Of a DNA stretch of 64,000 nucleotides, positions 4,612 through 38,594 are shown one piece after another (within the stretch, counting starts at the first letter, position 1; each line of letters opens with the position of its first letter). The translations under genes were made by a program, and so were the position numbers. The stretch is from NCBI RefSeq assembly GCF_056712565.1, contig NZ_CM160072.1. The stretch is one strand, 5' to 3'. The notes under the pieces are model-generated. The model did no database searches and was not told the DNA's origin. It saw only the letters and a list, made by a program, of their open reading frames with translations.

Positions 4612-5520
4612 ATGGCTGCCATTAATACGAAAGTCAAAAAAGCCGTTATCCCCGTAGCGGGATTAGGAACCAGGATGTTGCCGGCGACGAAAGCCATCCC
4701 GAAAGAGATGCTGCCACTTGTCGATAAGCCATTAATTCAATACGTCGTGAATGAATGTATTGCGGCTGGCATTACTGAAATTGTGCTGGTTACTCACTCA
4801 TCTAAAAACTCTATTGAAAACCACTTTGATACCAGTTTTGAACTGGAAGCAATGCTGGAAAAACGTGTAAAACGTCAACTGCTTGATGAAGTGCAGTCTA
4901 TTTGTCCGCCACACGTGACTATTATGCAAGTTCGTCAGGGGCTGGCGAAAGGCCTGGGACACGCGGTATTGTGTGCTCACCCGGTAGTGGGTGATGAACC
5001 GGTAGCTGTTATTTTGCCTGACGTTATTCTGGATGAATATGAATCCGATTTATCACAGGATAACCTGGCAGAGATGATCCGCCGCTTTGATGAAACGGGT
5101 CATAGCCAGATCATGGTTGAACCGGTTGCTGATGTGACCGCATATGGCGTTGTGGATTGCAAAGGCGTTGAATTAGCGCCGGGTGAAAGCGTACCGATGG
5201 TTGGCGTGGTTGAAAAACCAAAAGCGGATGTTGCGCCGTCTAATCTCGCTATTGTGGGTCGTTACGTACTTAGCGCGGATATTTGGCCGTTGCTGGCAAA
5301 AACCCCTCCTGGAGCTGGTGATGAAATTCAGCTCACTGACGCAATTGATATGCTGATCGAAAAAGAAACGGTTGAAGCCTATCATATGAAAGGGAAGAGC
5401 CATGACTGCGGTAATAAATTAGGTTACATGCAGGCCTTCGTTGAATACGGTATTCGTCATAACACCCTTGGCACGGAATTTAAAGCCTGGCTTGAAGAAG
5501 AGATGGGCATTAAGAAGTAA
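4612..5520 (+). CDS. galU: UTP-glucose-1-phosphate uridylyltransferase
   Basis: 302 aa with the [19 protein letters not shown] nucleotidyltransferase signature. Confidence 0.95.
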
Positions 5521-15009: not shown

Positions 15010-15930
15010 ATGTTAAAATTTATTCTACGTCGCTGTCTGGAAGCGATTCCGACGCTATTTATTCTTATTACTATTTCGTTCTTTATGATGCGCCTCGCTC
15101 CGGGCAGTCCTTTTACCGGCGAACGTACTTTACCACCGGAAGTGATGGCCAATATCGAAGCGAAATATCATCTTAATGATCCGATCATGACACAGTATTT
15201 CAGCTACCTGAAACAACTGGCGCATGGCGATTTCGGTCCATCGTTTAAATATAAAGATTATTCGGTCAATGACCTGGTTGCATCCAGTTTTCCCGTTTCT
15301 GCTAAACTGGGAGCCGCAGCATTTTTTCTTGCGGTAATACTGGGTGTTAGTGCTGGCGTTATTGCCGCATTAAAGCAAAACACCAAATGGGACTATACCG
15401 TGATGGGGCTGGCAATGACCGGGGTTGTTATCCCCAGTTTTGTGGTTGCGCCATTATTAGTCATGATATTTGCGATCATTTTGCATTGGCTGCCGGGCGG
15501 TGGCTGGAATGGTGGAGCGCTTAAATTCATGATATTGCCAATGGTGGCGTTATCACTCGCCTATATCGCCAGTATTGCGCGTATTTCCCGTGGCTCTATG
15601 ATTGAGGTTTTACACTCCAACTTTATTCGTACTGCCCGGGCGAAAGGGTTACCTATGCGGCGGATCATTTTACGCCACGCATTAAAACCTGCTCTGTTAC
15701 CCGTGCTCTCCTATATGGGGCCCGCATTTGTCGGCATTATTACCGGTTCGATGGTCATCGAAACCATTTATGGTTTACCGGGGATTGGGCAATTGTTCGT
15801 TAATGGCGCATTGAACCGTGACTATTCCTTAGTGTTAAGTCTGACCATTCTGGTTGGCGCGTTAACCATTTTGTTTAATGCCATTGTCGATGTGCTATAT
15901 GCGGTTATCGACCCGAAAATCCGTTACTGA
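15010..15930 (+). CDS. oppB: Oligopeptide ABC transporter permease
   Basis: 306 aa, multi-TM with ABC permease signature region. Confidence 0.93.
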   Translation: MLKFILRRCLEAIPTLFILITISFFMMRLAPGSPFTGERTLPPEVMANIEAKYHLNDPIMTQYFSYLKQLAHGDFGPSFKYKDYSVNDLVASSFPVSAKLGAAAFFLAVILGVSAGVIAALKQNTKWDYTVMGLAMTGVVIPSFVVAPLLVMIFAIILHWLPGGGWNGGALKFMILPMVALSLAYIASIARISRGSMIEVLHSNFIRTARAKGLPMRRIILRHALKPALLPVLSYMGPAFVGIITGSMVIETIYGLPGIGQLFVNGALNRDYSLVLSLTILVGALTILFNAIVDVLYAVIDPKIRY

Positions 15931-16864: not shown

Positions 16865-17878
16865 ATGAGCGTAATTGAAACTGCAACTGTGCCGCTCGCA
16901 CAACAACAGGCTGACGCACTGCTGAACGTGAAAGATTTGCGTGTCACCTTTAGTACCCCGGATGGCGACGTCACGGCGGTCAATGATTTGAATTTTTCGC
17001 TACGTGCCGGAGAAACGCTGGGCATCGTAGGTGAGTCTGGTTCGGGCAAATCGCAAACCGCATTTGCGTTGATGGGCCTGCTGGCTGCCAACGGACGTAT
17101 TGGCGGATCGGCAACCTTCAATGGGCGTGAAATCCTCAATTTGCCAGAGCGTGAACTCAATAAACTGCGAGCTGAACAAATCTCAATGATTTTTCAGGAC
17201 CCAATGACTTCGTTGAATCCCTATATGCGCGTCGGTGAGCAGTTGATGGAAGTGCTGATGCTGCATAAGAACATGAGCAAAGCTGAGGCGTTTGAAGAAT
17301 CGGTGCGGATGCTCGATGCGGTAAAAATGCCGGAAGCGCGTAAACGCATGAAAATGTACCCGCACGAATTTTCTGGCGGCATGCGTCAGCGAGTCATGAT
17401 TGCGATGGCATTGCTATGTCGACCTAAGCTGCTGATTGCGGATGAACCCACTACTGCGCTGGACGTCACCGTACAGGCGCAGATCATGACGCTATTGAAT
17501 GAACTGAAGCGGGAATTTAATACCGCCATCATTATGATTACCCACGATCTTGGCGTGGTAGCGGGGATCTGCGACAAAGTGCTGGTAATGTACGCCGGGC
17601 GCACGATGGAATATGGCAACGCGCGCGATGTCTTTTATCAACCCGTACATCCTTATTCTATCGGTTTGCTCAACGCGGTGCCGCGTCTCGATGCGGAAGG
17701 TGAAACAATGTTGACTATTCCGGGTAATCCGCCAAACCTGCTGCGATTACCGAAAGGTTGCCCGTTCCAGCCACGTTGTCCGCATGCGATGGACATTTGT
17801 AGTAGCGCACCGCCGCTGGAAGAGTTTACGCCTGGCCGTCTGCGTGCTTGCTTTAAACCAGTGGAGGAACTGTTATGA
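16865..17878 (+). CDS. oppD: Oligopeptide ABC transporter ATP-binding protein
   Basis: 337 aa with Walker A (GESGSGKS), ABC signature (FSGGMRQR) and Walker B. Confidence 0.95.
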   Translation: MSVIETATVPLAQQQADALLNVKDLRVTFSTPDGDVTAVNDLNFSLRAGETLGIVGESGSGKSQTAFALMGLLAANGRIGGSATFNGREILNLPERELNKLRAEQISMIFQDPMTSLNPYMRVGEQLMEVLMLHKNMSKAEAFEESVRMLDAVKMPEARKRMKMYPHEFSGGMRQRVMIAMALLCRPKLLIADEPTTALDVTVQAQIMTLLNELKREFNTAIIMITHDLGVVAGICDKVLVMYAGRTMEYGNARDVFYQPVHPYSIGLLNAVPRLDAEGETMLTIPGNPPNLLRLPKGCPFQPRCPHAMDICSSAPPLEEFTPGRLRACFKPVEELL

Positions 17879-35554: not shown

Positions 35555-35685
35555 CGAGATTAAAGTGCATTAGTTCAGATGCAAATTGACATTTTGTGGC
35601 ACAGGGTAGAGCTAGCGTGGTTGTCCGCTTTGTGCCAATAGCGGACATTGCTGGCTCATGGTATGTTAGTTTAAGGAGGCAGGTT

Positions 35686-36708
35686 ATGCCCTGTATTTCG
35701 CTGTGGTATAATAGTTGCGCAATTGATACAAGGGAGCGTTACATCGTGAAAATTGTTTTCGAGGTTAATGGAAAGAAAGTTCCACTAAAATCTTTAAAAT
35801 ACATAAGCAAAAAAGATCAACTCGAAGTAATGAAAAACTGGTTCTTTGAAAACTTTGAAGATCCGGCAAATGCTTGTCCGTATGAAAGTAGAGAAGGTGG
35901 CTATGCTTACATATATGGCGGGCCGTATGATGCGAGCGAAGAACTACAATCCATCTTCGGTCAATATGTTAAATCTGAGTATATTGAGGAATTAGTAGAT
36001 GAATTACAAACACAATGTTTTGACTGGTCTGGAAACTCAAATAATATAGATGATTGGTACGATGATGATATCTACGACGCTGTAACGTCTTCCGGTAATC
36101 CGTATTTAAAATTCATTGATAATATCGATAAAATAAAAAAACTTGCAAAAGATAAAACTGAACAACAGCAAAAAAACCACTTGCTTAGTTTGCTCTACAC
36201 GAATGTTATTACAGCTTTGGAAACGCTTTATGTTGAGCTATTCATTAATTCTATAGAGAAAGATGATGTCTACATAGCCAATTGTATAGAAAAAGGTAAG
36301 ACTGAATTTAAAGTAAGCAAAGATATTGCTGCGTTGCCTTTCAAGGGTGAACCCATCGAGAAAATTAGGGGAGAGCTAATCAGGTCAATCAAGGAACACT
36401 TGATCAGTGCAAGCTGGCATAGCACTAAAAAGGTAATCGACCGCTATGAAGCTACATTCGATATAAAAGTACAAAAAGACTGTCCGATAGAAGCTATTGA
36501 ATTGGCAACCCTCAATCGAAATCACTTAGTGCATCGTGGTGGAAAGGATAAAGAAGGGAACCTCGTAGTGATTACAGACCAGGATCTTGAAACGCTGATT
36601 GAAAATGCATCGAACCTGGCAATTATGCTCTACAACAGTTTAAATGTAGCAACGAATAAAACCACCATTTTGCAACCAGATGACAAACCGTTCATTCATG
36701 AATTTTAA
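35686..36708 (+). CDS. AT-rich cargo gene 1: protein with HEPN-like R-N-x3-H motif near the C-terminus
   Basis: AAGGAGG RBS 6 nt before ATG 35686 (alternative GTG at 35746); strongly AT-rich body; motif LNRNHLVHRGG. Confidence 0.55.
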   Translation: MPCISLWYNSCAIDTRERYIVKIVFEVNGKKVPLKSLKYISKKDQLEVMKNWFFENFEDPANACPYESREGGYAYIYGGPYDASEELQSIFGQYVKSEYIEELVDELQTQCFDWSGNSNNIDDWYDDDIYDAVTSSGNPYLKFIDNIDKIKKLAKDKTEQQQKNHLLSLLYTNVITALETLYVELFINSIEKDDVYIANCIEKGKTEFKVSKDIAALPFKGEPIEKIRGELIRSIKEHLISASWHSTKKVIDRYEATFDIKVQKDCPIEAIELATLNRNHLVHRGGKDKEGNLVVITDQDLETLIENASNLAIMLYNSLNVATNKTTILQPDDKPFIHEF

Positions 36709-36723
36709 TAGCGCAGGTCATAC

Positions 36724-37725
36724 ATGGATATTCGCACACGAAAGACAAAATTTTTAGAGTCGTTAGATTCAACTGAAGTGATACGCAAAGCAGTAAGTCT
36801 CGCTATAGATTGCATTATTGATAATCATAATAGTAATGAAGATACCCCCTTAGTTATTACCAGCTATGATGATCTCTGTAGAATCCAGGTGCTAAATTAT
36901 GTACAGGAGTTTTGCGAAGCTGCATTCCCTGATATGGATGAATATTACTTTAGTCCTAACATACTTCGCATCAACGGCAAGACTAGTGAAGAAGCTTGTA
37001 TTAACTTAATTAAACTCTTAAGAAGTACAAAAGGCATGCTATTCTGGTCCGATGCCCCATCGTGGTTCGCTAGCCTCCCCGACGGATTATTCCATGTTGT
37101 TAACATTGATCAAAAAATCGTTACTCGCGGCCTTAATAAGAAAAACTCTAAGCCGACAATAATCAATAAAGATTACAGTGTAGATACACTACTATCAGAG
37201 CTATTTTTGAATGGCGCACACATGGAGCAACCCAACGTACACAACGTTTCTGAGGGAAACATGAAGTTCTATGATGAATGCCATGCTGGATTAATCAGAC
37301 CAATACCCGCTCCAATAGGCGCGTCATACGATGAAGAGATCACAATTAATTCTCCAGATTGGCAAAAGCTCGCGTGTGTAGCTTTACGCCGCTATCAGTC
37401 GAAGGAATGTCATGACGGAATGCAATGGGATACAACCGATCATGGTTGGACTGATGTAATCGCGTATCCATTCGTCGAAGAAATACAATCAATGGATAAT
37501 AGTGGTTATCGACAATGTTTAGTTGGGCTGGTCACAATAAACAATTCAAATGCAAATTCTCCGTACCTATCTACCGTTTGGATACATCCATTTTATCGCA
37601 GGAGAGGGTTATTAAGTAAGTTATGGCCAAAATTACAAGAGTTATATGGAAGTAACTTCGAAATTGAGCGACCTAATGAAAATATGAAAGCATTTCTGAA
37701 AAGTGCGAAACACGCAGATTACTAA
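36724..37725 (+). CDS. AT-rich cargo gene 2: protein with GNAT-like C-terminal motif
   Basis: 333 aa, 15 nt after gene 1; C-terminal ...LSTVWIHPFYRRRGLLSKLWPKL... resembles GNAT acetyl-CoA motif A. Confidence 0.5.
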   Translation: MDIRTRKTKFLESLDSTEVIRKAVSLAIDCIIDNHNSNEDTPLVITSYDDLCRIQVLNYVQEFCEAAFPDMDEYYFSPNILRINGKTSEEACINLIKLLRSTKGMLFWSDAPSWFASLPDGLFHVVNIDQKIVTRGLNKKNSKPTIINKDYSVDTLLSELFLNGAHMEQPNVHNVSEGNMKFYDECHAGLIRPIPAPIGASYDEEITINSPDWQKLACVALRRYQSKECHDGMQWDTTDHGWTDVIAYPFVEEIQSMDNSGYRQCLVGLVTINNSNANSPYLSTVWIHPFYRRRGLLSKLWPKLQELYGSNFEIERPNENMKAFLKSAKHADY

Positions 37726-38041
37726 TTTATGAATCAGTCTGTGGAGTTAGGGTTGGTGTCAACAAGTAGGGTAAGAGCCTCAACGTGATGCTATGCCGAC
37801 CTGCTCCCTGAGAATTCACACAGAAGGCTGCTAGCAATGTCTGCAGATCGCTCAAAGCGGACTAGAAGGTTAGCTTGCGTCGGACTTGGCGTATTTAAAG
37901 AAGTGCTGGTGGTGACTGGTTGTTGTGTTCCATTTCTACAGAACAAAATCACAGAAACTATACCCAATAGTTATATTGAATCAATGATGAGACAGCCTCA
38001 TATTTATCAGAACTGGTGTACGTCCAATACAGGAGGTTGTC

Positions 38042-38131: not shown

Positions 38132-38342
38132 TTTTATATTGGCGAGGTGACGGGAGTTAAGTAGAATTGCTGCGGGTGCTTGAGGCTATCTGCCTCAGGC
38201 ATGAACACCAAAGGCAGATAGAGAAAAGCCCCAGTTAATATTACGCGTCCTGCAAGACGCTTAACATTAATCTGAGGCTCAATCTATGAACGGCAAATCT
38301 AGGTTAGCCTCTTACGTGCCGAAAGGCAAGGAGAAGCAGGCT

Positions 38343-38498
38343 ATGAAGCAGCAAAAGGCGATGTTAATCGCCCTGATCGTCATCTGTTTAACCGTCATAG
38401 TGACGGCACTGGTAACGAGGAAAGACCTCTGCGAGGTACGAATCCGAACCGGCCAGACGGAGGTCGCTGTCTTCACAGTTTACGAACCTGAGGAGTAA
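38343..38498 (+). CDS. hok: Hok/Gef-family type I membrane toxin
   Basis: 51 aa MKQQKAMLIALIVICLTVIVTALVTRKDLCEVRIRTGQTEVAVFTVYEPEE. Confidence 0.85.
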   Translation: MKQQKAMLIALIVICLTVIVTALVTRKDLCEVRIRTGQTEVAVFTVYEPEE

Positions 38499-38567
38499 GA
38501 GACCCGGCGAGGGAGAAATCCCTCGCCACCTCTGATGTGTCAGGCATCCTCAACGCACCCGCACGTA

Positions 38568-38594
38568 ACCCGCTTCGGCGGGTTTTGTTTTTTC
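38568..38594 (+). terminator. Rho-independent terminator
   Basis: aacccgcttcggcgggtt followed by ttgtttttt. Confidence 0.7.

What the first reader, a model, noticed from the sequence alone, without database searches (positions are those of the whole stretch)
35555..37725. AT-rich two-gene cargo cassette: HEPN-like motif protein plus GNAT-like protein
Two co-oriented genes (35686-36708 and 36724-37725, 15-nt gap) sit in DNA that is far more AT-rich than the flanking phage genes, which marks them as horizontally acquired cargo. Gene 1 ends with LNRNHLVHRGG, which fits the R-[N/H]-x3-H catalytic motif of HEPN RNases. Gene 2 has a C-terminal stretch (VWIHPFYRRRGLLSKLWPKL) resembling the GNAT acetyl-CoA-binding motif A after a ~220-aa domain I cannot place. 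The cassette lies between the replication genes and hok, a region where lambdoid phages often carry accessory genes. I do not recognise this pairing as any named defence or toxin-antitoxin system.
Basis: partly seen in the sequence, partly recalled or inferred. Interest (0 to 1): 0.85.

Follow-up and report, generated by a model that had tools for sequence, protein, structure and literature searches.

The report
Prophage cargo cassette: HEPN RNase, acetyltransferase
Two real, uncharacterised genes (a predicted HEPN RNase and an acetyltransferase-fold protein) travel together in a swappable, inverted-repeat-bounded slot of an E. coli prophage, but relatives show they are separable modules rather than an obligate two-gene system.

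Summary
Two co-oriented ORFs 15 nt apart lie in DNA of 38.5% GC, against 48-52% in the flanks, between the DUF977 gene and hok/sok of a lambdoid prophage.

Gene 2 has an N-terminal domain found only in its own family, plus a GNAT-fold C-terminus.

No PADLOC system matches either gene, and I found no paper on them.

The pairing is not a conserved system. Gene 1 relatives at 77% identity or below, and distant gene 2 relatives, are solo. Gene 1 has been deleted from the pair at least three times with gene 2 kept intact. However, every gene 1 at 87% identity or above that I examined still has gene 2, so a lineage-specific functional link is not excluded.

The cargo is bracketed by a 46-nt imperfect inverted repeat, the same family that flanks fun(Z) in phage P2. 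That family precedes at least 27 unrelated cargo types in viral contigs.

Most likely this is a mobile cargo cassette with a solo-capable, abortive-infection-type HEPN effector plus an autonomous acetyltransferase. All functions are inferred.

The parts
35610..35655 (+). Left arm of the cassette-bounding imperfect inverted repeat. It holds the L-type hairpin GTCCGCT-TTGTGCCAAT-AGCGGAC (35622-35646) and the ATTGCTGG box (35647-35654). Homology to phages Tritos and Evi ends here, at 35649/50.
   Evidence: The repeat finder I1 pair is 46 nt and 74% complementary. The same core occurs in 102 viral-contig stretches with diverse flanks and at P2 15344-15358.
35657..35712 (+). Cassette leader with two extended -10-like boxes: TGGTATGTT (35657-35665) and TGGTATAAT (35704-35712). 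It also holds AAGGAGG (35673-35679) followed by ATG 35686. These are candidate own promoter(s) for expression in the lysogen.
   Evidence: Read from the sequence. The leader is conserved in the Erwinia, Dickeya and solo gene 2 loci. A GGGAGCAGGTCA-like motif sits at a fixed offset in 29 of 88 contexts, against 1 of 88 in the control. Promoter function is inferred. The simple -35/-10 scan did not flag these boxes.
35746..36708 (+). Gene 1 (320 aa from GTG; WP_014639476.1). It has a HEPN/RES-NTD1 domain (about aa 26-92) plus a HEPN domain (about aa 140-308).
36517..36534 (+). Codons for R258-N-H-L-V-H263, the Rx4H motif of the predicted HEPN active site.
   Evidence: R258, H263 and R264 are invariant in 56 homologues down to about 27% identity. 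E159, W224 and H225 are also invariant.
36724..37338 (+). Gene 2 N-terminal alpha/beta domain (aa 1-205), with no detectable relatives outside this family.
   Evidence: A profile search of 1.84 billion representatives found 23 hits, all with the same ~330-aa architecture or fragments of it. There is no Pfam, NCBIfam, PADLOC or PDB sequence hit. AF2 pLDDT is about 90.
37339..37725 (+). Gene 2 C-terminal GNAT-fold domain (aa ~206-333; whole gene 36724-37725, WP_000354966.1). The motif-A-like WIHPFYRRRGLLSKLW lies at 37579-37626.
   Evidence: Foldseek against PDB matches HAT1, Esa1/MYST, SSAT and AAC at probability 0.97-1.0 over about 150 columns. Pfam Acetyltransf_1 scores E=2.2e-3 on the window protein and matches 9 of 43 homologues at <=1e-3 (26 of 43 at <=0.1). 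W286, H288, P289 and R292 are invariant.
37830..37875 (+). Right arm of the inverted repeat. It holds the GCTAGCAAT box (37830-37838) and the R-type hairpin GTCTGC-AGATCGCTCAAA-GCGGAC (core 37849-37862). Homology to Tritos and Evi resumes at 37836-37848.
   Evidence: The same R-type core lies downstream of the cargo in Evi, Tritos and L049, and in P2 at 17442-17455.

Best explanation
The region is a discrete, horizontally mobile cargo cassette of about 2.2 kb (window ~35651-37835). It sits in an accessory slot of a lambdoid prophage and is delimited by a 46-nt imperfect inverted repeat of the family that flanks fun(Z) in phage P2.

It carries two genes that are separable in evolution. They are probably co-transcribed from a promoter in the cassette's own leader.

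Gene 1 is a HEPN/RES-NTD1 + HEPN protein. I infer that it is a latent RNase effector of the abortive-infection type. It would be inactive by default, dimerise to form a composite Rx4H active site, and be switched on by a phage cue sensed through its N-terminal domain. This is analogous to solo HEPN defence proteins such as HepS.

Gene 2 is an acetyl-CoA-dependent acyltransferase-fold protein whose unique N-terminal domain presumably selects its substrate. It works without gene 1.

Shown: the gene models, folds, motif conservation, cassette boundaries, cargo swapping, the defence-island neighbourhoods of relatives, and the non-obligate pairing.

Inferred: RNase activity, the trigger, acetyltransferase activity, any anti-phage phenotype, and the promoter.
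For: Cassette and mobility:
- The inverted-repeat arms lie at 35610-35655 and 37830-37875.
- Homology to phages Tritos and Evi stops and resumes inside the arms. Different cargo lies between them: PDC-S15 in Tritos, and an HTH regulator plus a small acetyltransferase in Evi.
- The same L and R cores flank fun(Z) in P2.
- The L core occurs in 102 viral-contig stretches. It is followed by at least 27 unrelated ORF clusters.
- 53 of 71 L sites with at least 3 kb of downstream sequence have an R site downstream.
- 24 fixed-spacing R-L junctions indicate tandem arrays.

Gene 1:
- Pfam NTD1 and RiboL-PSP-HEPN hits across the family.
- Invariant R258-x4-H263.
- It occurs alone in a P2-like hotspot, after a ParE/HTH pair, at a prophage end and in a core-genome site. 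It therefore needs no dedicated partner.

Gene 2:
- GNAT fold.
- It is solo in marine gammaproteobacteria, a Serratia ICE and A. salmonicida.
- It stays intact and under purifying selection (omega 0.25-0.40) after at least three independent deletions of gene 1.

Defence context of relatives:
- Thoeris lies next to the Aeromonas pair.
- PD-Lambda-4_A and PD-T4-3-like genes lie next to solo gene 2 copies.
Against: No experiment exists for either family, so 'defence' rests on guilt by association.

Neither protein matches a PADLOC model.

Every gene 1 copy at 87% identity or above whose context I could see still has gene 2 at the same 15-nt spacing. These are E. coli, Erwinia, L019, P0002 and Aeromonas. 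All observed single-gene losses removed gene 1, never gene 2. This asymmetry would also be expected if gene 2 protects against gene 1.

The window protein itself scores only weakly against Pfam: NTD1 at E=2e-4 and GNAT at E=2e-3, with no direct RiboL-PSP-HEPN hit.

Foldseek on the full-length gene 1 model found nothing significant.

The GNAT motif-A glycine is not invariant.
Confidence: 0.5

Rival explanations
1. Functionally coupled pair, in this lineage. Gene 1 is a HEPN RNase toxin or effector. Gene 2 neutralises or gates it, for example by acetylating the HEPN protein or its RNA target. This would be a type-VII-like toxin-antitoxin or defence logic that uses acetylation where HepT/MntA uses AMPylation.
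For: - The 15-nt spacing and single leader are conserved in five paired lineages at 86-100% nucleotide identity.
- No gene 1 at 87% identity or above was seen without gene 2.
- Gene 1 was lost at least three times with gene 2 kept. That is the asymmetry expected for a toxin and its antidote.
- Two independent deletions preserve a mini-ORF that ends at gene 1's stop codon, 15 nt before gene 2. This suggests that gene 2 expression is coupled to translation of gene 1.
Against: - Gene 1 relatives at 29-77% identity are stably solo in many genomes and phages.
- Distant gene 2 relatives (39-62% identity) are solo, with no HEPN neighbour and no recurring partner.
- With only 3-4 loss events, the asymmetry has about a 6-12% chance under equal loss rates. 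It is equally explained if gene 1 is simply costly.
- No interaction evidence could be computed.
Confidence: 0.27
2. These are ordinary lysogenic-conversion cargo unrelated to phage defence. For example, the acetyltransferase might modify a small molecule, antibiotic or host protein, and the HEPN protein might act in RNA metabolism or prophage regulation.
For: - GNAT enzymes mostly act on small molecules or proteins. The best structural matches include aminoglycoside and polyamine acetyltransferases.
- Some gene 2 homologues sit among housekeeping genes: next to polA in L006 and next to glycosidases in L008.
- The cassette is common in ExPEC/APEC strains such as S88, IHE3034 and APEC O1.
Against: - Across independent contexts, relatives sit in phage hotspots and next to known defence systems.
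- HEPN proteins with an intact Rx4H motif on mobile elements are typically conflict effectors (Anantharaman et al. 2013; HepS).
- The same slot holds a PADLOC defence candidate in phage Tritos.
Confidence: 0.15
3. Reverse toxin-antitoxin. The GNAT protein is a TacT/AtaT-like toxin that acetylates aminoacyl-tRNA, and gene 1 is its antitoxin.
For: GNAT toxins exist, and their antitoxin gene usually lies upstream of the toxin gene (general knowledge of the TacAT/AtaRT families).
Against: - Gene 2 persists intact after at least three deletions of gene 1, and it is solo in most of its family.
- It is twice the size of GNAT toxins and carries an extra domain.
- Gene 1 has no RHH or other DNA-binding antitoxin domain.
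Confidence: 0.03

Closest known systems
HEPN/RES-NTD1 + HEPN proteins (RiboL-PSP-HEPN / MAE_28990-type clades) catalogued by Anantharaman, Makarova, Burroughs, Koonin and Aravind 2013 (PMC3710099)
   Same: Gene 1 has the same two-domain architecture: an N-terminal NTD1 domain followed by a HEPN domain with an intact Rx4H motif. The Pfam models built from that work hit gene 1's family.
   Different: That catalogue is purely computational, and no member has a tested function. It lists ParB or L-PSP associations, not a GNAT partner. The window protein itself reaches significance only for NTD1.
HepS of Salmonella prophage Gifsy-1 (Sargen et al. 2026, PMC13043305)
   Same: HepS is a single HEPN protein encoded in the accessory region of a lambdoid prophage, between the replication genes and the late regulators. 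It is non-toxic by default and has no obligatory partner. This parallels how gene 1 relatives behave genomically.
HepT/MntA type VII toxin-antitoxin systems
   Different: The partner here is a GNAT-fold protein, not a minimal nucleotidyltransferase. The pairing is not conserved across the family, and gene 1 has an extra N-terminal domain.
Inverted-repeat-flanked fun(Z) cassette of phage P2 (Nilsson, Karlsson and Haggard-Ljungquist 2004, as summarised in PMC8987985)
   Same: The same L-type and R-type cores bracket fun(Z) in P2 and the two genes here. In both cases the cargo between the arms differs among related phages.
   Different: Here the element sits in a lambdoid early-right operon slot rather than in the P2 tail region. 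I could not read the 2004 paper, so the identity of 'their' repeats with this element rests on my scan of the P2 sequence. No recombinase is known.
Integron cassette arrays (attC sites)
   Same: Both show arrays of single-gene cassettes separated by an ~80-nt imperfect palindrome. Here the palindrome has complementary ...CAA(Y) / (R)TTG... end boxes and folds well as single-stranded DNA.
   Different: No integron integrase lies nearby. The end boxes only loosely resemble RYYYAAC/GTTRRRY. The sites flank the cargo as inverted arms. I ran no attC covariance model.

Membership tests
HEPN superfamily (gene 1) | All-alpha HEPN helical-bundle fold | tested here: met
HEPN superfamily (gene 1) | Conserved Rx4-6H motif | tested here: met
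   R258-NHLV-H263 is invariant in 56 homologues down to about 27% identity.
HEPN superfamily (gene 1) | Metal-independent RNase activity from a dimeric composite active site | not testable with these tools
   This needs biochemistry. No multimer prediction was available.
Pfam PF18870 HEPN/RES-NTD1 | Significant match to the family profile | tested here: met
   E=2.2e-4 on the window protein (residues 26-92). 32 of 56 homologues match at <=1e-3 and 53 of 56 at <=0.1.
Pfam PF18735 RiboL-PSP-HEPN | Significant match to the family profile | tested here: inconclusive
   The window protein itself has no hit. 25 of 56 aligned homologues match at <=1e-3, with a best of 1e-10. Membership is therefore only transitive.
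GNAT acetyltransferases (gene 2) | GNAT alpha/beta fold | tested here: met
   Foldseek against PDB gives probability 0.97-1.0 to HAT1, Esa1/MYST, ESCO1, SSAT and AAC over about 150 columns. The AF2 model has pLDDT 90.
GNAT acetyltransferases (gene 2) | Motif A (Q/R-x-x-G-x-G/A) for acetyl-CoA pyrophosphate binding | tested here: inconclusive
   The sequence is R292-R-R-G-L-L. R292 is invariant, but the glycine is replaced in some homologues and the last position is Leu. Pfam Acetyltransf_1 scores only E=2.2e-3.
GNAT acetyltransferases (gene 2) | Acyl-CoA-dependent transferase activity | not testable with these tools
   This needs biochemistry.
Obligate two-gene system (any toxin-antitoxin or defence pair) | Co-occurrence of the two genes conserved across their families | tested here: not met
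   The pair is found only where gene 1 is at least 87% identical. Gene 1 at 29-77% is solo, gene 2 at 39-62% is solo, and gene 2 at 68-91% is solo through deletion of gene 1.
HepT/MntA type VII toxin-antitoxin | Adjacent MNT nucleotidyltransferase antitoxin | tested here: not met
   No nucleotidyltransferase domain is present in gene 2 or its neighbours.
GNAT-RHH type II toxin-antitoxin (TacAT/AtaRT) | Small (~170 aa) GNAT toxin with an upstream RHH antitoxin | tested here: not met
   Gene 2 is 333 aa with an extra domain. Gene 1 has no RHH domain. Gene 2 is viable alone.
Named defence systems in PADLOC-DB v2.0.0 | Significant match to any component model | tested here: not met
   The best E-value is 0.01 for gene 1, and gene 2 has no hit.
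P2 fun(Z)-type inverted-repeat-bounded cassettes | L-type and R-type arms in inverted orientation bracketing variable cargo | tested here: met
   Arms lie at 35610-35655 and 37830-37875. The same cores are present in P2 around fun(Z) and in Evi and Tritos around other cargo. Statistics over 122 sites are.
P2 fun(Z)-type inverted-repeat-bounded cassettes | Site-specific recombination at the arms | not testable with these tools
   There is only indirect support: homology breakpoints coincide with the arms. No recombinase has been identified.
Integron cassettes | intI integrase and attC sites with RYYYAAC/GTTRRRY cores | not tested
   No attC model was run. No integrase lies in the slot. The resemblance is in layout only.

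The most novel reading that the evidence does not exclude
In the paired lineage, the GNAT-fold protein may be a dedicated controller of the HEPN RNase. It would switch the enzyme, or its RNA substrate, by acetylation. That would be a new enzyme-antitoxin or gating logic for HEPN effectors, parallel to AMPylation by MntA. It would have been assembled recently from two autonomous modules inside a swappable cassette.
Probability: 0.2. Interest if true: 0.8.

Novelty: new member of a known kind. Interest (0 to 1): 0.5.

Why it matters
The cassette is present in about 4% of complete E. coli genomes. These include well-studied extraintestinal pathogens (S88, IHE3034, APEC O1) and the type strain ATCC 11775, yet both genes are annotated as hypothetical.

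Gene 1 offers a tractable representative of a HEPN architecture that was predicted in 2013 and has never been tested.

Gene 2 defines a small family with a domain seen nowhere else.

Nature has already made the informative mutants, namely three independent gene 1 deletions that keep gene 2. This makes the question 'pair or two solos?' directly testable.

Separately, the inverted-repeat boundary element gives a simple sequence handle for finding accessory and defence cargo. It applies across lambdoid prophages, P2-like prophages and genomic islands.

Tried and rejected
- **Profile searches of both families against PDB sequences.** Nothing meaningful was found, so there is no sequence link to HepS or any solved HEPN or GNAT protein.
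- **TIR-like reading of the gene 2 N-domain.** I suspected this from motifs such as VITSYDD and SWF. Profile comparison with a ThsB TIR protein gave probability 0.1%, and Pfam shows no TIR hit. This is a weak test, because only a single TIR sequence was used.
- **RNA antitoxin as in AbiF.** Rfam at E<=1 finds no abiF motif or any other family in the leader.
- **ATG 35686 as the gene 1 start.** It is not conserved.
- **Treating solo gene 2 copies as evidence that the pair never existed.** I rejected this because those copies carry gene 1 remnants.
- **Literature searches.** Searches for the accessions, the PHROG ids, HEPN+GNAT defence and the element sequence found nothing. Nilsson 2004 and Odegrip 2006 could not be read.
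- **The simple promoter/terminator scan.** It gave no more sites than shuffled sequence.
Full report
**Observation**

The two ORFs are in the sequence as described. The cargo is 38.5% GC, against 48-52% in the flanks.

RefSeq annotates the same locus in E. coli S88 as two hypothetical proteins. They lie between a DUF977 gene and hokD, inside a lambdoid/Rac-like prophage: cI-like, cro, YdaT, replication organiser, DUF977, cargo, hokD, DUF968, RusA, Q. Rfam confirms sok at 38174-38348.

The cassette is 100% identical in 204 of 5426 complete E. coli genomes. These include S88, IHE3034, APEC O1 and ATCC 11775.

Both genes have many homologues and evolve under purifying selection, so they are real genes.

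Gene 1's start is better placed at GTG 35746. This is RefSeq's choice. Its Shine-Dalgarno (SD) sequence and GTG are conserved in every gene 1 locus.

**Gene 1**

Pfam places residues 26-92 in HEPN/RES N-terminal domain 1 (E=2e-4). Scanned one by one, 32 of 56 homologues hit that family and 25 of 56 hit RiboL-PSP-HEPN.

R258-x4-H263 is invariant across 56 sequences down to about 27% identity. E159 and W224/H225 are invariant too.

This architecture was catalogued computationally by Anantharaman et al. 2013. That work describes HEPN/RES-NTD1 fused to HEPN, and a Ribo L-PSP-HEPN clade distantly related to AbiD/AbiF. I found no experimental work on it.

**Gene 2**

The C-terminal ~130-150 residues adopt a GNAT fold. 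Foldseek gives probability 0.97-1.0 to HAT1, MYST/Esa1, SSAT and aminoglycoside acetyltransferases. Pfam support is weak but consistent. The motif-A-like segment is only partly canonical.

The N-terminal ~205 residues are confidently modelled but have no relatives outside the family. A profile search of 1.84 billion representatives returned 23 hits, all with the same architecture or fragments of it. My TIR-like idea was not supported.

**Is it a two-gene system?**

No known system matches. Co-occurrence is restricted to one lineage.

| Gene and identity to the window copy | Arrangement |
|---|---|
| Gene 1, 87% and above (E. coli, Erwinia 93%, a viral contig 96%, a metagenomic copy 89%, Aeromonas 87%) | Paired, identical 15-nt spacing |
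| Gene 1, 29-77% | Solo: a P2-like hotspot next to the Ogr, portal and terminase genes; after a ParE/HTH pair in Dickeya; at a prophage end in Aeromonas; between core genes; next to a resolvase in E. coli |
| Gene 2, 39-62% | Solo, no recurrent neighbour |
| Gene 2, 68-91% | Solo, but descended from the pair |

The enterobacterial solo gene 2 copies carry remnants of gene 1. The cassette leader is joined to gene 1's last 40-200 nt at three different junctions:
- 35722|36647 in L048, L059 and L061.
- About 35685|36667 in L049.
- A truncation that keeps sequence from 36513 onward in L171-L174.

L167 also keeps gene 1's tail. In all of these, gene 2 is intact and under purifying selection (omega 0.25-0.40).

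Gene 2 therefore does not need gene 1, and the gene 1 family does not need gene 2.

One asymmetry remains: gene 1 was lost repeatedly, gene 2 never. No close gene 1 copy was seen without gene 2. This keeps a lineage-specific toxin/antidote or gating relationship alive. With 3-4 events the asymmetry is only suggestive, and it would also arise if gene 1 is simply costly.

**Cassette boundaries**

The strongest inverted repeat in the region brackets the cargo: 35610-35655 and 37830-37875, 46 nt, 74% complementary. Homology to phages Tritos and Evi ends at 35649/50 and resumes at 37836-48, inside the arms. Those phages carry both arms around different cargo:
- Tritos carries a protein matching PADLOC candidate PDC-S15.
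- Evi carries an HTH regulator plus a small acetyltransferase.

The left core is GTCCGCT-yTGTGCCAGr-AGCGGAC-nTTGnT. It occurs in 102 viral-contig stretches, in 87 distinct contexts, with diverse sequence on both sides.

It is followed by at least 27 unrelated ORF clusters. These include PD-T4-3-like GIY-YIG proteins, HNH proteins and P-loop ATPases.

Of the left sites with enough downstream sequence, 53 of 71 have a right-type core (CGCTCAnAGCGGAC) 0.45-4 kb downstream. A further 24 have one exactly 35-41 nt upstream, which indicates tandem arrays of cassettes.

The composite junction is an ~85-nt imperfect palindrome with complementary end boxes. It folds well as single-stranded DNA (z down to -5.3). 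In a third of copies the left arm extends by a fixed-offset GGGAGCAGGTCA-like motif.

Phage P2 carries a perfect left element at 15344-15358 and a right element at 17442-17455, bracketing fun(Z). This matches a review's summary of Nilsson et al. 2004, that fun is flanked by inverted repeats enabling site-specific recombination. I could not read the original paper.

The element family is therefore known in principle. Rousset et al. 2022 do not mention it for P2/P4 hotspots. None of the searchable papers holds its sequence.

**Mechanism (inferred)**

Several unrelated contexts place relatives beside defence genes:
- The lambdoid slot holds other defence candidates in other phages.
- The Aeromonas pair sits next to Thoeris genes (ThsB and SIR2-STALD).
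- Solo gene 2 copies sit next to PD-Lambda-4_A and PD-T4-3-like genes.
- Solo gene 1 sits in a P2-like hotspot.

Together with the intact catalytic motif, this points to gene 1 as a latent HEPN RNase effector of the abortive-infection kind. It would resemble HepS in logic: solo, non-toxic until triggered, and encoded in the accessory region of a lambdoid prophage. It is not related to HepS in sequence.

Gene 2 most likely transfers an acyl group to a target chosen by its unique N-terminal domain. Whether that target is a phage component, a host component or gene 1 itself is open.

**Verdict**

The 'pair' is best seen as two separable modules sharing one mobile, inverted-repeat-bounded cassette, not as a new conserved two-gene system. 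A recently evolved functional link cannot be excluded.

Interest is moderate. There are two untested candidate conflict genes in clinically important E. coli, a natural deletion series that makes the key question testable, and an overlooked boundary motif useful for mining cargo genes.

Noticed in passing
window 35610-35655 and 37830-37875; loci L064-L165; P2 (L166) 15344-15358 and 17442-17455: There is a widespread cassette-boundary element with L-type and R-type hairpin arms. When cassettes are in tandem, the arms form an ~85-nt palindromic junction. In viral contigs it heads at least 27 unrelated cargo gene clusters, forms arrays with fixed 35-41-nt R-L spacing, and flanks fun(Z) in phage P2. 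It could serve as a search handle for accessory and defence genes.
   Followed up: partly
window 47066-47080 (- strand): This is a lone L-type hairpin. Its stem has changed on both sides (GTCCGGT/ACCGGAC instead of GTCCGCT/AGCGGAC), which preserves pairing. It lies between ORFs 46331-46795 and 47103-47528. No partner arm was found within 7 kb.
   Followed up: partly
L061 85-189; L049 ~4920-4965; L171 ~2900-2985: Independent deletions of gene 1 each leave a short ORF of 13-34 codons. Each short ORF is in frame with gene 1's C-terminal tail and ends at its original stop codon, 15 nt before gene 2. This suggests gene 2, which has only a weak SD of its own, depends on translational coupling.
   Followed up: partly
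L050 4644-5606 (protein P0148, E. coli): This is an in-frame chimera. The first 118 aa come from a DnaC-like helicase loader (Walker A GKPGTGKN) and are fused to gene 2 residues 133-333. It arose by a deletion in a related, decaying prophage.
   Followed up: yes
L020 3338-4696 (- strand): A 452-aa protein sits next to a solo gene 1 homologue in a P2-like hotspot. It carries its own RNRIIH (Rx4H-like) motif and has no PADLOC match, so it may be another uncharacterised HEPN-type gene.
   Followed up: no
L012 3026-3652, L013 999-1625, L014 798-1424: A 208-aa protein with no Pfam or PADLOC hit is conserved ~350 nt upstream of a distant (36% identity) gene 1 homologue in three independent metagenomic contigs. 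It is a possible alternative partner for that HEPN branch.
   Followed up: no
L048 736-4329; L052 6593-7774; L003 2893-4227: Known or candidate defence genes lie next to relatives or in the same slot. A full-length PD-Lambda-4_A homologue lies upstream of a solo gene 2. Thoeris ThsB and SIR2-STALD lie beside the Aeromonas pair. PDC-S15 is the cargo of the same slot in phage Tritos.
   Followed up: yes
window 38507-38588 (+): There is a sub-threshold Rfam match to the isrK Hfq-binding sRNA (27.8 bits against a gathering score of 50, E=0.003). It lies just downstream of hok/sok.
   Followed up: no
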